A DNA stretch of 64,000 nt, counting the filler, from Streblomastix strix (Eukaryota), in assembly GCA_008636045.1 (NCBI GenBank). It is 4 parts of 4 records of this genome, joined end to end, with 100 filler letters (N's around TTAATTAATTAA, not from the genome) between each part and the next. Parts side by side here need not be neighbours in the genome. Positions count along the whole stretch, not along the records: positions 32,257 to 48,268 come from SNRW01000885.1; 3 more parts are not named here. The stretch is one strand, 5' to 3'. The notes under the pieces are model-generated. The model searched no databases, had not been told where the DNA came from, and saw only the letters and a program-made list of their open reading frames with translations. This document shows positions 32,257-46,160 of this stretch, one piece after another (the stretch's first letter is position 1; the number at the start of each line of letters is the position of its first letter). The position numbers and the translations under genes are program-made.

Positions 32257-35200
32257 ACGTTAAGAATTAACTAAGACATTTATTACTACGATAACGAACA
32301 TAAGAATTATTATAGAGGGCTGTAGATATTGTATTAATATAAAGATTAAAATGAAAAATAAGATGTCAAAACAATCGATATATTAGTTGTTGAATCTATT
32401 TATGAAGGAAAGAAGATTTCTCATGTATTTGCAATAGCTAATAAACAAGCATTGACGGGATTGAAATTTTGTCCAAATTGTAACTCAAAAGCGTTTGATC
32501 CTAAAGATAAAAATTACTCAAGAGACTATGAGAAACACACTATAAAATGCGAAAATAACGAAGGAAAAATAGTTAAGAAAGCTAGTTTAGAATATATCTA
32601 AAAGCCATTTGTTCCACACATTATGCAAAATATAACTTATCAATATCTATTAGCAAAAGGAAGATAATATGAATTTAAACCTACACAATACTTCATCACA
32701 TACGATCTTGAAACAGTTCCTAAAATCGTTAAAAAAAGTTCAGTAAATCAAGCTGTTAAATGTATGAACAATTACCTTTATCAGTAGCATCAAATATCTG
32801 TATCAAATAAAGAATTAAGAAAATCTTCTTTAACTAATAAGATGGAGATGAATTTATAGTCTAATGGTTAAATTAATTGTTTAAAGAAGCTGATTAAGTT
32901 AATGCTGACAACTAGTGTATAACAGAAGCTTGCACCATTGATGAATCAATTCCTTATTCAATGGAAGTACCAATAGTAGGATTCAATAGCTCAAGATTTG
33001 ATATATCATTAATAATATCATAAATGTAATGTAAAGATTGGACAATCAGTAATTATATAGATAGTCCTTCATAAGCAAAGCAAGTAATTGAGCATCATAA
33101 AAAATTGAATATGAAAGTGAAATTTGTTGACATGTTAACGAATCTATAACCTATGGAATTAAAGTAAGCAGCTAAAGATTTTGGTGATGGATATGATGAT
33201 AGAAAAGGCTTATTTCCCTATGACTCTTTCAATACTGATAATGTAAATGAAGTATTAAGTAAATCAGAGTCATTTATAATGGAAGATTTCAACTCATCAT
33301 TGATGAAGACAAAAATTAGTTAGAAAGATTATTAAATTTATCTAGAAGATGCAAAACGATTTAAAAATAGATGGGACTATTTACAACACTATAACGAATA
33401 AGATACTAATATAGTGATTAAACCGTTAATGACTCTAATTAGCTTACAATTTAAATATAAAATTGATATGTTTAGTTTCATGAGTATGGCTGCATGCTCT
33501 AGTGCTATCAAATATGCTAAAGCATATGAGGATTTTGACATTAATGGAGTATATCCTAATTTTGAAGATTTGTCATAGAAATTTTACTTAACAGAGAACT
33601 ATTGGTTGAGTAAAGTGCGGGGATATCAAGTCTAAGATAAACATTAAAGAAGAGACACAACAAATAACGTATAAGATAAGGATTTCGATTATTTCAAACA
33701 ATTATTCAAAGATACCAATTGCAGCATTTGCAGATGTAAATTCACTTTTGCCAATAAACCAACTCTTGACAGAATCTACAATTTAAAAGGTCATTCAAAA
33801 GATAATATTCAACCTTGTTGTTTATATTGCAATTGCTTTTATTCAATCAAAGATAAAAATATAGGTAAATTGTTCATATAATTACGTAAATATTGTATGA
33901 TAAGATGTTTACCAACTAACCTAACAGATATTAATGTATATCATTTAATCAGGTCAGGAATAACAGGTGGATTATCAAATGTAATGCATCGAACTAATAG
34001 ATCAGGAATTGATTTTATTAAACGATTATATTATAACAAGGAAGCAAAAAAAGTTACTGTTCTTACAACGGATCATCGAATAACGCATGTAGTCGGTATT
34101 GATTTTAATTCTTTATATCCTAGTGTTATGTCATCAGAGCCACATAAATTTATTAAGTATACAGGAGGTAAAATGTATATGTGCGAATCATAAACAGGAA
34201 AGATTAAGGGTAATAGTGAACATTCAAAATAAACTATACTATGAATAATTAATAGCAATAAGCGATTTACATAAGACGGAAGATTATTCATTGCTGAAGT
34301 TAAAAGTCATATTGATGAGAATTACATAAACGATTTCATTGACTTTCCACCTATTCTAAGAAATATTGAATTCACAACTGATGAAAGAACTATCGGTTCA
34401 TAAATGTATAAACATATGAAGTACAATACGATTAAGACTGATCAAAAATAAAGAAAGCTAACTAATCTATCTTCAACGATGGGAGAATATATGGCATTAA
34501 GCTCATACTATTTATGGTTCTTAATTGATGATTGTCATTTTATTAAAAATGATGTGAAATAGATAGTGCTATTCAATAAACATGACTAATTCAGTTCATT
34601 TATTAAGGAATCTACTAAAAACAGAATTGAAGCAAAATTAGATGAGAATAAGTGATAAGAATAATTCTTTAAGATTGTTATGAATAGCTCATATGGTAGT
34701 GATGGAAGGAATACAGAGAAATATCATAAAGTTAAAATAATGAATAGTAAGTAAACAGAAAGAGCAATTAGATCTAATGCATTCATGAACGAATAAAAGA
34801 TATCTGAAGATAGTTATATTGTTTAAATGAATCCTGAGCATTGCAGTTGTAAAACTCCTTTATAAGTAGCTTTCTTTGTATTAGATAATGCAAAATATTG
34901 GTATCTAAACTTTATATATAACTTCACGTACAAATGCTTAGATATTAATCGTATTCATTTTATTGAAGGAGATATTGATTCAGCTTATTGGACTATTAGT
35001 GGTAATCCTAATGAAGATTTTACTTAGTAATTTAATGCTGTAGTTAACACTAGAGATTTTTATAATGAGAATGCAAAGTACTTCTTCCCTATGATTAGAG
35101 GAAACGTATATGATGAGAAGAAAATCCTAGGATTAGCAATCGAACGACAAGGACCATCAATGATAGCATTAGCTCCCAAAAATTATATCATATTCAAGAA

Positions 35201-35498
35201 TTATTGTGATGATTCAAAAATATAATTAAAAGGGGTAAATTAAAAAACTAACAAAATCACTAAAGACTAGATAGTCGATTGCATTAATGAAAGTAAGATA
35301 ACGAAATGCGACAACCTAAGGCTTGGCTAGAAGAATCATTAGATGAGTTAATTAGCAATAGAAAAAAATGGAATAACTGGAATTCACACAAAAATGATAG
35401 TGCTTGAGAATCAATCATGCTGTCCATTTATGTATGGATTAGTTGCTAAGGATTAGTTTTTTACCAAAAATGCCATCTCCGATGACTCATTCAATTGA
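32257..35498 (+). pseudogene. Protein-primed family B DNA polymerase (Polinton type), 5'-truncated and disrupted
   Basis: Exo I YDLET, Exo II GFNSSRFD, KGLFPYD, Exo III YNEQD, motif A DFNSLYPS, motif B KIVMNSSYG, motif C EGDIDS (DTDS expected), LAPKNY, KGV. Frameshift ~32740 and in-frame TGA at 34242 and 34653. Confidence 0.95.
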
Positions 35499-35546
35499 TT
35501 AGCAGAGCTTAGTGAAACTTAAACCTATGGTTTCAAACCTATGGTT

Positions 35547-36564
35547 TCATTTATTTTTGAGAATCTCAAATTTCCTGAGCCATTTGTTTAGAATGATAAA
35601 CTCATATTTCTTTAATGTATTGTATAATAATTGGAATTCATCAAAACCTAAATTTTATATAGTAATTTCATCATACACTTATCTTTGATCAGTTTCTCCA
35701 AGATTAACGCCTAAGCAAATGACATGTGTTAGTATCCTTGCAGTTTTGAACAAATAAATTGGACGTTAAGCTATAAAGAAAATAGTATTTTTACTATGTC
35801 TCGAATCATTAATGAGATGCGTAATTGTTTTAGATAGTTATGAACTGAATCATTAGATATCTGCATTAGAGCCAATGTCATCGAATAGCATTAACGTATT
35901 GAGTAATTGAGCTTTTTCTAATATAAGTATTTTCATTATTTTTTACATCAACCTAATCTTGATCGACTATTTTGAATTTCTTTTAGCAACGAACATTTTG
36001 AATTAGCGCAGGGATATCGAATCTCAATATCTTGGTTGGTTCACAATATATATTAATGGTTTCGATTACTTTTAATTTGAATAGTTCAGCAATTTTATTA
36101 AGATAATCATTAGGTTTTTCATTCATTTTAGTCTCATTAGCTTATAATATCTATTCTTCCATTCGCTTAATGAAATCGCTAGCATAAGATTATTTTTGTT
36201 CATTCATTTTGTACCATGTATACATCTCTTTAGTGGAAAATTTTATGTCATCAAATTCAGGTAGAAATATCATTGCTTCTCCATAAGTTACATTCGTTAG
36301 TTATATATTCTTACTATTAAGGTTTAATGCCATAGTTTCATCTGCACAATAATTCGAGAAGTATAATATGAATGGATCAATGATTTTCTTATATACTACA
36401 ACTAGCTTGCACATTAATGTTGTTTTACCATATCCAACAGCTCCAACAATATAATGGTTTCCATTAATAAGGAACAATGAATTCTTCGTTAATGGCTTAG
36501 GTTTATATTCATTCAATAGATCTTGATTAGTAAATGTTATATCTTATAATTCTTGTAGTGACAT
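35547..36564 (-). pseudogene. A32-like DNA-packaging ATPase
   Basis: Walker A GAVGYGKTT, Walker B LMLFDD, SRH arginine finger, FFIAQ (Q encoded by TAA). Frameshift ~36210 and TGA at 35850-35852. Confidence 0.9.
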
Positions 36565-36580
36565 TTTCAAAAATAATAAA

Positions 36581-44522: not shown

Positions 44523-45148
44523 ATGGACTTACAACACGCCTTAAAGAATTTGATAGAGAATGGAACAAATATTGAATACTATGACAATGGATATGTAATC
44601 CAAATTAATAAAGATATTAAAGTATTCGAAGAAGGAAAGAAAACACTTAAAAAAGTAACATAAACATAATAGAATAAATTACTGTTATAAGCGAAAGGTG
44701 GGGCAGCTCCAAAGAAAAAAGTTTAAAAATCATCTTAAAAATAAACAGATGATGAATAAGATTTTACATCTTCTGAGCCATAAGTGGATTAAAATAAAAG
44801 TGATGACGATTCCATAAGCGAAGTTCGAGAAAAACCATTGAGGAAACAAGTTAGAAAAAGAATATTAAAAAAATTTCAAAAACTCCATAAATTAATTATA
44901 CTAATCCTCAACTTGATTTGGAAGAACTAATCAGGTTGAGAATTGAAAATTAATTTATTAAACAATAACATTAAGATGCTGTTAAACAAATAGAGAAATA
45001 TAAATAAAAAGTTAAACAATATAAGTTACTCAAATAGACTTTTAAAAAAAAATAAATAATTGAATAGACTTAAGCTACGAATGAATTCTAAGAAGAACCT
45101 GCATAGTATGAAGAATAGGATAAAGATATTAATTTTGATTTATATTGA
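44523..45148 (+). pseudogene. K/Q/D-rich hypothetical viral protein, frameshifted
   Basis: MDLQHALKNLIENGTNIEYYDNGYVIQI...AKGGAAPKKK...; shift near 44880; ends DINFDLY*. Confidence 0.5.
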
Positions 45149-45176
45149 ACAATTATTTTTTTGTTCCCTGTTTAAC

Positions 45177-45680
45177 ATGGATTACAAGATAGTACATACA
45201 AATGATTAAGATGAGATAACAATGATAGGTAATATTCCATATGATAATTAAAATACAGTTGAGATAAGTAATAGTTAATTATTCTTAACAGATAAACAAC
45301 TCTCAGATTATTAAGCTAATATTAAAATAGTTAATGACAAAATAAGTATAATAAACAAAAGAAATAACTTAGTAATGATTAATGTAAGATACATAATTCT
45401 AGAGTAGCACAAGAAGCTGAAGATTAAAGATATCTATAATATGAAGTAGATAATGATCTTTGATTATTTTTTTTGCTTACTATTTAAAATTGATTAGACA
45501 CGATATGATTATCTTAAACAGCAAGAAACATAACTACTAAACGAATATAAACAAAAGACTAAAGAAATTATAGAGTTTGATATAGAATTAAAGTAAAAAT
45601 AAGTACAACACCTATATGCTTTGCTTGATCATACTCGTGATTCAAATCGTATAGCTGAGGCTTATTTAAATAAAAAATGA
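45177..45680 (+). pseudogene. One or two small degenerate viral ORFs
   Basis: MDYKIVHTNDQDEITMIGNIPYD... and ...RYDYLKQQE..HLYALLDHTRDSNRIAEAYLNKK*. Confidence 0.4.
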
Positions 45681-45699
45681 TTTTGATTATTTTTTATTA

Positions 45700-46160
45700 G
45701 GCGCTAGCGCAGTGTGACGGAGTTACACCACGCTTATTATAAAGACAAACTTTATCGGTTAGCGCTTAATATTTTTTATTTATAAATTATGAACAAGCGC
45801 CTGAACAATGTGACGCAGTTAATTTGAAAGACAATTCATATAGATTAATACTTATTTATACATGTTTCACATTGGCGTGATGAAATAATGTTTTCAGATA
45901 TGTTTATACGATATTTTTGGGGAAGATGTGCCGTAGGTGGATTAATTATATGTATTAATGTTTATTTATTCATACTTTGTATTAGTGTGGTGGTTTAATG
46001 CTTTCAGATATGTTCATTCGTTAGTTTTATTGAGGAAGATGGCGCCGTATTTTTAAAATCATATTAAATCAAATCGATTTGCTACACCTATTCAATTAGC
46101 GTGGGTAAATTCATTTGAATTAATATGATTTAGAAGTTACGGCAAACTTCTTCTTTATAT
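45700..46160. repeat. Non-coding terminal region of the viral element with direct repeats and a ~115-nt imperfect hairpin
   Basis: TGTGACG.AGTTA twice, TTTCAGATATGTT..GGAAGATG..GCCGTA twice, inverted repeat 46035-46150. Confidence 0.65.

What the first reader, a model, noticed from the sequence alone, without database searches (positions are those of the whole stretch)
32257..46160. Endogenous Polinton-like virus with an apparently adenovirus-like entry kit (fibre + pVI-like peptide + capsid)
Seen: an intronless, tightly packed block with pPolB, A32-like ATPase, a 662-codon capsid candidate, two fibre-like genes, a small amphipathic peptide and several ORFans. Established: pPolB, packaging ATPase and jelly-roll capsid define Polintons/PLVs, the group thought to have given rise to adenoviruses. 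Inference: this lineage builds virions with a receptor-binding fibre and a separately encoded membrane-penetration peptide, a combination I do not recall for standard Polintons. No integrase or maturation protease is visible, but the left arm is missing.
Basis: partly seen in the sequence, partly recalled or inferred. Interest (0 to 1): 0.9.

Follow-up and report, generated by a model that had tools for sequence, protein, structure and literature searches.

The report
Protist provirus with pVI-like entry peptide
This is a broken copy of a many-copy Polinton-like DNA virus in the genome of a termite-gut protist, and next to its predicted capsid and fibre genes it keeps a 68-residue peptide whose start resembles the membrane-breaking helix of adenovirus, so it likely helped the virus enter cells.

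Summary
The block is real: a decayed copy of a high-copy endogenous Polinton-like virus; nearly all named homologs are from Streblomastix strix (code 6). The capsid candidate is a double-jelly-roll major capsid protein (model of an intact sister, pLDDT 84; Foldseek E 2e-11 to PBCV-1). It is closest to giant-virus and virophage capsids, not to hexon (Z 15.1 versus 5.9). Fibre, peptide and capsid are neighbours in sister copies. Distant standard-code relatives (capsid 25% identical) also keep a homologous peptide beside the capsid gene. Part of the fibre is predicted to trimerise, but it shows no adenovirus fibre homology. The peptide is a cationic amphipathic helix; its residues 3-12 match the adenovirus pVI lytic helix at 7 of 10 positions (8 of 10 in the relatives), though not significantly (E 6). 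Fibres and membrane-active virion peptides, some pVI-like, are already reported for Polinton-like viruses, so the kit as such is not new and a special link to adenoviruses is unsupported. Possibly new: a capsid family apparently distinct from the catalogued S. strix one, and a stand-alone mini-pVI that would need no protease.

The parts
32260..35498 (+). Family-B DNA polymerase, likely protein-primed, 5' end cut by the contig end; broken (frameshift near 32730, stops at 34242 and 34653); carries an inserted endonuclease VII/HNH domain at about 33558-33836
   Evidence: Motifs; PHROG 1035 endonuclease VII E 1e-10; no Pfam polymerase hit at E 0.1; HNH insertion is described for Polinton pPolB2 (10.1101/2023.08.22.554363)
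35547..36564 (-). A32-like packaging ATPase, broken (frameshift near 35940, stop near 35850)
   Evidence: Walker A and Walker B in successive frames; 31% identical to the ATPase of relative L003, pairwise E 6e-18; 'A32-like' rests on recalled motifs and context, no library hit
36782..37626 (.). Three small helical ORFs of no known family (about 36782-36949 +, 36960-37208 +, 37168-37626 -)
   Evidence: no significant family
37655..39907 (-). Fibre 1, 750 aa, open frame: N-terminal coiled coil (about 90-135), four HxH-type repeats (about 205-310), swappable middle domain, repeated beta modules; predicted homotrimer
   Evidence: 284 homologs; modular variation among copies; trimer of residues 300-630 scored 0.80, best of 3 controls 0.00
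39998..40204 (-). 68-aa cationic amphipathic peptide starting Met-Gly; likely virion membrane-penetration protein; residues 3-12 resemble the pVI lytic helix
   Evidence: 64 homologs; hydrophobic moment 0.47 over residues 2-36, 0 of 20000 shuffles reach it, net charge +5; homolog in L002/L003; pVI match E 6
40271..42259 (+). Double-jelly-roll major capsid protein gene, 662 codons, broken by stops at codons 447 and 564
   Evidence: 264 homologs; model of intact sister P0060 pLDDT 84.3, pTM 0.88; fold searches
42505..43261 (-). Fibre 2 candidate, about 250 codons, frameshifted near 42810: coiled coil, the two short motifs shared with fibre 1, beta-rich C-terminus
   Evidence: only weak likeness to fibre 1 (hhalign probability 9%, E 0.0035): fibre role is inferred
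43287..45680 (.). Cluster of small ORFs of no known family (43287-43700 -, 43756-44109 -, 44106-44466 -, 44523-45145 +, 45177-45680 +), partly fragmented
   Evidence: inside the multi-copy region
45681..46163 (.). Likely right terminal non-coding region with an imperfect hairpin (arms 46044-46080 and 46107-46143) and a probable end at 46163
   Evidence: Depth step; hairpin 37 nt, 81%; sequence ends ...TATACT, fitting the recalled AG...CT ends of Polintons; the matching left repeat cannot be seen

Best explanation
The block is a decayed, integrated copy of a Polinton-like DNA virus of the oxymonad Streblomastix strix that encodes a predicted double-jelly-roll capsid, a likely packaging ATPase, a predicted trimeric fibre and a conserved amphipathic peptide that likely serves as the virion's membrane-penetration protein. 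Inferred cycle of intact relatives: the polymerase copies the linear genome from its ends, the ATPase packs it into the capsid, fibre trimers bind the host surface, and after uptake the peptide, carried inside the shell, is released and its N-terminal helix breaks the endosome membrane. Because the helix begins at residue 2-3, no maturation protease would be needed to free it; the conserved Gly2 may be myristoylated. Shown here: genes, breaks, copy family, linkage, amphipathy. Predicted: capsid fold, fibre trimer. Inferred: virion location, receptor binding, lysis, myristoylation.
For: Capsid model pLDDT 84.3; top Foldseek rows are all double-jelly-roll capsids, best E 2.4e-11; VIA ranks 1-14 are such capsids, best Z 15.1, rmsd 3.8, 337 aligned. 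Linkage: 15 of 61 named peptide hits lie within 3 locus tags of a listed capsid or fibre gene on a contig of the same length, random mean 1.7, maximum 9 in 5000; 27 of 120 deposited fibre models, the window's own included, begin with peptide sequence. Distant relatives L002 and L003 keep capsid, peptide and ATPase together, L003 also a fibre-like and a penton-like gene. Peptide is the best conserved of the three genes (mean pairwise identity 76% versus 62% and 61%). Fibre 300-630 as three copies: score 0.80, best control 0.00, runs share at least 69% of contacts, pLDDT at least 64; the mark was reached by 21 of 30 solved pairs and 0 of 23 single chains, but the job is unlike the calibration and may pass by likeness to solved fibres. 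Among 7 PDB hits of the peptide profile at E up to 10 are nodavirus gamma peptide and two pVI chains, aligned inside the lytic helix 34-54.
Against: No experiment shows virions, packaging of the peptide or membrane lysis. The pVI match is not significant (E 6 and 8.9) and appeared only with the 7-sequence profile; the 49-sequence profile, the single L003 peptide and Pfam gave no pVI hit. No penton, integrase or protease is seen in the window (left arm missing). This copy's polymerase, ATPase and capsid genes are broken. The fold was made on a sister 53% identical to the window gene; a first model from close sisters alone failed (pLDDT 45). The fibre has no significant hit in Pfam, PHROGs, NCBIfam, PDB or phage genomes, so receptor binding is inference.
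Confidence: 0.68

Rival explanations
1. Same virus, but the peptide is not an entry protein: it acts in exit (holin-like lysis of the host cell) or as a basic core or cement protein inside the capsid, and the pVI likeness is convergence of amphipathic helices.
For: Cationic amphipathic helices converge easily: weak hits to cecropin and frog antimicrobial peptides. Holin-like and SLATT pore genes are common in these viruses and are proposed for exit or defence (10.64898/2026.10.13.758929).
Against: Tight linkage to the capsid gene in two distant lineages; only +5 charge, low for a DNA-condensing protein (judgement); the distant relatives are closer to pVI than the window peptide at three further positions.
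Confidence: 0.22
2. One reading: the lineage is especially close to adenoviruses and shows their entry kit (fibre, pVI, hexon) in an early state.
For: pVI-like motif; peptide gene adjacent to the capsid gene, as pVI is to hexon (recalled); large 650-aa capsid protein.
Against: Capsid model is far closer to PBCV-1, faustovirus, ASFV, mavirus and Sputnik (Z 11.8-15.1) than to hexon (Z 5.9, rank 43); no adenovirus shaft or knob match for the fibre; the polymerase carries an HNH-type insertion as Polinton pPolB2 does. No tree was built.
Confidence: 0.07
3. The family now spreads only as a transposon inside the genome, or the host has kept the peptide for its own use (for example against bacteria); the virion genes are passengers.
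For: Most copies are fragmentary: 27 of 120 listed capsid hits reach 600 aa (the query was the 446-aa piece and many contigs are short); this copy is dead.
Against: Full-length capsid copies exist, one cluster with 29 members at 90% identity; the peptide stays inside the virion module, also in standard-code relatives from other metagenomes.
Confidence: 0.03

Closest known systems
Streblomastix strix and Trichomonas endogenous viruses of the MMN (Metamonada) group, Bellas et al. 2023 (PMC10120064)
   Same: Same host genome, same use of TAA/TAG as Gln, double-jelly-roll capsid, hundreds of copies (820 capsid genes counted for S. strix, all in one cluster).
   Different: The S. strix capsid proteins visible in their tables (four locus tags; the modelled one is 562 aa) are not among my 119 listed hits, and no DUF4106 match was found here. 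This looks like a second, about 650-aa capsid family; not certain, because their S. strix rows were cut from the stored file.
Adintoviruses / MELD viruses / adomaviruses with 'Macc' membrane-active core proteins (PMC8502044, PMC11071296, 10.1101/341131)
   Same: Polymerase B, capsid, ATPase, fibre-like genes and small predicted membrane-active virion proteins (cupiennin-like, PLA2X, pVI-like, LO6).
   Different: No protease or integrase seen here (incomplete); capsid family unrelated by sequence search; the peptide is a stand-alone 68 aa with the helix at its very start.
Adenovirus protein VI
   Same: Ten-residue stretch 7 of 10 (window) and 8 of 10 (L002, L003) identical to pVI 40-49, inside the lytic helix 34-54; amphipathic and basic.
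   Different: pVI is a 266-aa precursor in the matched chain, cut by the viral protease at both ends; the peptide has no such leader or tail, starts Met-Gly, and the match is not significant.
Polinton-like virus fibres (Gezel-14T, cryptophyte, oomycete and T. vaginalis elements; PMC12220804, 10.1101/2023.08.22.554363)
   Same: Long modular, predicted trimeric proteins beside the capsid genes, varying between copies.
   Different: No named fibre domain (Peptidase_S74, collagen, PTR, laminin G, adenovirus shaft) was detected here.

Membership tests
Polinton-like viruses (Polisuviricotina, broad sense) | Double-jelly-roll major capsid protein | tested here: met
   on an intact sister; window gene 53% identical
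Polinton-like viruses (Polisuviricotina, broad sense) | A32-like packaging ATPase | tested here: met
   Walker A and B motifs, homolog beside the capsid gene in L002/L003; no Pfam A32 hit, family name from recalled motifs
Polinton-like viruses (Polisuviricotina, broad sense) | Family-B polymerase motifs | tested here: met
   Exonuclease and polymerase motifs read from the sequence; HMM libraries gave no polymerase hit
Polinton-like viruses (Polisuviricotina, broad sense) | Protein-priming insertions and terminal protein of the polymerase | not tested
   5' part is cut off; no model or tree made
Polinton-like viruses (Polisuviricotina, broad sense) | Single-jelly-roll penton | tested here: inconclusive
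   None recognised in the window; L003 has a 701-aa candidate (Atlas features 0.91-0.92, one cluster with V18-19 in 10% of members); one pairwise test against a window ORF was blank
Polinton-like viruses (Polisuviricotina, broad sense) | Terminal inverted repeats and target-site duplication | not testable with these tools
   Left end lost at the contig edge; no genome held; only a likely right end
Polintoviricetes (Mavericks, adintoviruses) | RVE integrase and adenain-like protease | tested here: inconclusive
   No hit among 23 element ORFs or 16 L003 ORFs; both sequences are incomplete
MMN group, cluster 40 (DUF4106 capsid) | Capsid protein in the T. vaginalis DUF4106 sequence cluster | tested here: inconclusive
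   No DUF4106 hit in 46 and 12 proteins; visible reference tags absent from my hits; direct comparison not run; supplement cut
Adenoviridae | Capsid protein closest to hexon among double-jelly-roll proteins | tested here: not met
   Hexon Z 5.9, rmsd 4.9, 326 aligned, rank 43; 14 other capsid proteins rank above it at Z 8.6-15.1
Adenoviridae | Fibre with beta-spiral shaft and knob | tested here: inconclusive
   No sequence match in Pfam (22 members, E up to 1) or PDB; no fold search on the fibre
Adenovirus protein VI family | Long precursor with protease-removed leader and C-terminal cofactor peptide | tested here: not met
   68-69 aa in window, sisters and L002/L003 versus 266 aa
Adenovirus protein VI family | Homologous N-terminal lytic helix | tested here: inconclusive
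   7-8 of 10 identities, E 6; no Pfam hit

The most novel reading that the evidence does not exclude
The 68-aa peptide is a true homolog of the adenovirus pVI lytic helix and preserves its ancestral form: a stand-alone, possibly myristoylated, protease-independent penetration peptide encoded beside the capsid gene in an uncatalogued lineage of Polinton-like viruses; adenoviruses would later have wrapped it in a protease-controlled precursor.
Probability: 0.3. Interest if true: 0.75.

Novelty: new variant of a known kind. Interest (0 to 1): 0.5.

Why it matters
How Polinton-like viruses enter cells is open; proposals rest on weak profile hits. A minimal peptide that is conserved across capsid proteins only 25% alike and matches the pVI lytic helix is cheap to test on liposomes, and bears on where adenovirus endosome escape came from. 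The capsid family, with 10 distant representatives in several metagenome sources on contigs up to 22 kb, may be one of the lineages that recent surveys could not place (10.64898/2026.06.19.733378 says Metamonada elements remain ungrouped).

Tried and rejected
First capsid model from 46 close sisters: pLDDT 45, no capsid match; superseded once distant homologs were added. No whole genome held, so no sister DNA, no both-end element, no dN/dS. IMG/VR scans with four queries found no relative; first metagenome scan blank. No RNA holder listed: no statement on expression. Phage origin of the fibre: its short motifs recall phage tail fibres (from memory), but tblastn against 50,697 phage records gave nothing significant for three queries and PHROGs only E above 0.02: not claimed. 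Homology of the window fibre to the L003 fibre is weak (probability 2.5%; fibre 2 E 0.011). Peptide-fibre fusion in deposited gene models: junctions vary from residue 53 to 68, read as prediction artefacts, real splicing not excluded. Atlas for the peptide found only its own Preaxostyla clusters. A paper search for the shared five-letter motif gave 4 unrelated papers. No trees were built; the script machine was lost. Searches for prior print on S. strix elements gave only PMC10120064; searches showed no paper on this peptide family; subscription journals are mostly not searched.
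Full report
Setting. The window is four contigs of about 16 kb joined by N-linkers. The finding lies on the third (32257-48268) and begins at its edge, so the missing left arm is an assembly cut. ORFs open only under code 6. All 119 non-self capsid hits listed (of 264), all 120 fibre hits listed (of 284) and 61 of 64 peptide hits carry the name Streblomastix strix. No whole genome was held.

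Anatomy and decay. From the left: family-B polymerase with an inserted endonuclease VII/HNH domain (PHROG E 1e-10), ATPase, three small ORFs, fibre 1, peptide, capsid gene, fibre 2 candidate, small ORFs, and a non-coding end with a hairpin. Polymerase, ATPase, capsid and fibre 2 genes are broken by stops or frameshifts; fibre 1 and the peptide are open. Contigs of four runs (at most two samples) cover the whole block with many variants; summed depth drops about 24-fold at 46160 in X1, which supports the stated right end. The end at 46163 fits the recalled AG...CT termini of Polintons; repeats and target duplication cannot be tested.

Capsid. Pfam, PHROGs and PDB sequence searches were blank. 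A model from 46 close sisters failed. A profile search of 1.84 billion representatives gave 213 hits, 150 listed, among them ten long divergent proteins 22-30% identical to sister P0060, from JGI, ENA, Logan and NCBI, on contigs of 2.5-22 kb. With these added (68 rows) the model reached pLDDT 84.3, pTM 0.88. Foldseek: PBCV-1 E 2.4e-11, then EhV-201, mavirus, iridovirus, faustovirus, Sputnik; BFVD: virophage, adomavirus, adintovirus and giant-virus capsids. VIA: PBCV-1 Z 15.1 (rmsd 3.8, 337 aligned); ranks 1-14 are double-jelly-roll proteins; adenovirus hexon is rank 43, Z 5.9. It is a double-jelly-roll capsid, not a hexon-like one.

Linkage. 15 of 61 named peptide genes lie within three locus tags of a listed capsid or fibre gene on a contig of equal length (random mean 1.7, maximum 9 in 5000 draws); 12 capsid-fibre pairs do likewise. 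This is a lower bound, as only the best 119 hits of each family were listed. 27 of 120 fibre models and 2 of 120 capsid models contain peptide sequence. One metagenome scan gave 3 related loci from 34 candidates. L002 and L003, standard code and near-identical to each other, carry a capsid gene (25% identical to the window's), directly followed by a 68-69-aa Met-Gly peptide homologous to the window's (35% over 62 aa, pairwise E 4e-9; hhalign 94.8%) and an ATPase; L003 also has a penton-like 701-aa and a fibre-like 542-aa gene. L001 is 1.4 kb and was not examined. L003 shows no polymerase either, so it is incomplete and its lack of a protease proves nothing.

Peptide. Residues 2-36 have a hydrophobic moment of 0.47 peaking at 100 degrees, reached by 0 of 20,000 shuffles; net charge +5; Gly2 in 45 of 49 aligned copies; mean pairwise identity 76% against 62% for capsid and 61% for fibre alignments (48 of the 64 hits were aligned, mostly the full-length ones). 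The 49-row profile, the single L003 peptide, Pfam and the Atlas gave no pVI hit. A 7-row profile of window, sister and L002/L003 peptides gave 7 PDB hits at E up to 10, including nodavirus gamma peptide (E 0.59) and two pVI chains (E 6, 8.9) aligned at pVI 40-53, inside the lytic helix 34-54 (10.1101/857581, passages). Counted by hand, residues 3-12 are identical to pVI 40-49 at 7 positions in the window and 8 in L002/L003. As a single comparison that is about P 3e-5 (E over 177,635 sequences), but the comparison was chosen after the likeness was noticed and amphipathic helices converge; the partly independent point is that the relatives, found through the capsid, match pVI at three positions where the window does not. 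Homology is possible, not shown.

Fibre. It has a coiled coil, HxH-type repeats and modules that are swapped or duplicated between copies. Three copies of residues 300-630 scored 0.80 against a best control of 0.00 (runs share at least 69% of contacts, pLDDT at least 64; mark reached by 21 of 30 solved pairs and 0 of 23 single chains; three copies are outside the calibration and a pass may come from likeness to solved fibres). No library or phage-genome search named it. Fibre 2 rests on two short shared motifs.

What is known. PMC10120064 (passages; supplement rows) reports S. strix endogenous viruses with this genetic code, 820 capsid genes in one cluster shared with T. vaginalis. The four reference tags I could see are not among my hits and DUF4106 was not hit, so this may be a second family; the stored supplement is cut before the S. 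strix rows, which bears on that claim. PMC12220804 (passages and section 13 part 1 of 2) describes phage-like fibres across Polinton-like viruses, T. vaginalis included. PMC8502044, PMC11071296 and 10.1101/341131 (passages) describe cupiennin-like, PLA2X and pVI-like virion proteins and fibre genes. PMC6048507 (passages) proposes an amphipathic entry helix in the mavirus capsid tail. 10.1101/2023.08.22.554363 (passages) describes the HNH insertion in pPolB2. 10.64898/2026.06.19.733378 and 10.64898/2026.10.13.758929 (passages) leave Metamonada elements ungrouped and list pore-forming genes.

Verdict. A real, dead copy of a real virus family. It likely works like adenovirus at entry (fibre, then a lytic helix), but it is not shown to be close to adenoviruses, and fibre plus penetration peptide is a known theme in this virus group. 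The points of interest are the apparently uncatalogued capsid lineage and the stand-alone peptide with a pVI-like start. Interest 0.5; new variant of a known kind.

Noticed in passing
window 4800-6290 (+): A second decayed ATPase of the same family, with the same small gene upstream on the other strand, on the first contig of the window: another fragment of this virus family.
   Followed up: partly
window 6859-7672: Long inverted repeat (arms 6859-7148 and 7381-7672, 81-86% complementary), MITE-like or a terminal structure next to that fragment.
   Followed up: no
window 46549-46839: A separate short high-depth repeat outside the element's right end.
   Followed up: no
window 47632-48267 (-), 55348-56793 (+), 59122-60411 (-): Host armadillo-repeat-like genes; the first flanks the element and has weak ARM hits, the other two look alike by eye.
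   Followed up: partly
L003 21-55, 1314-1345, 3805-3831, 7288-7310, 12866-12899: A recurring motif of about 13 bases in the relative's genome, several copies just before late genes (peptide, penton candidate): candidate viral promoter element.
   Followed up: no
L003 5380-7293: Three tandem paralogous genes of about 200-220 aa of no known family between ATPase and penton candidate; L003 also begins with 73-nt direct repeats, possibly a genome end.
   Followed up: no
P0195 (fibre hit): Its locus tag is three away from one of the MMN capsid references of PMC10120064, so this fibre family may be shared by both S. strix capsid lineages.
   Followed up: no
window 51789-52583 (-), 53474-54805 (+): Ordinary host genes: DENR and Cdc73.
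   Followed up: yes
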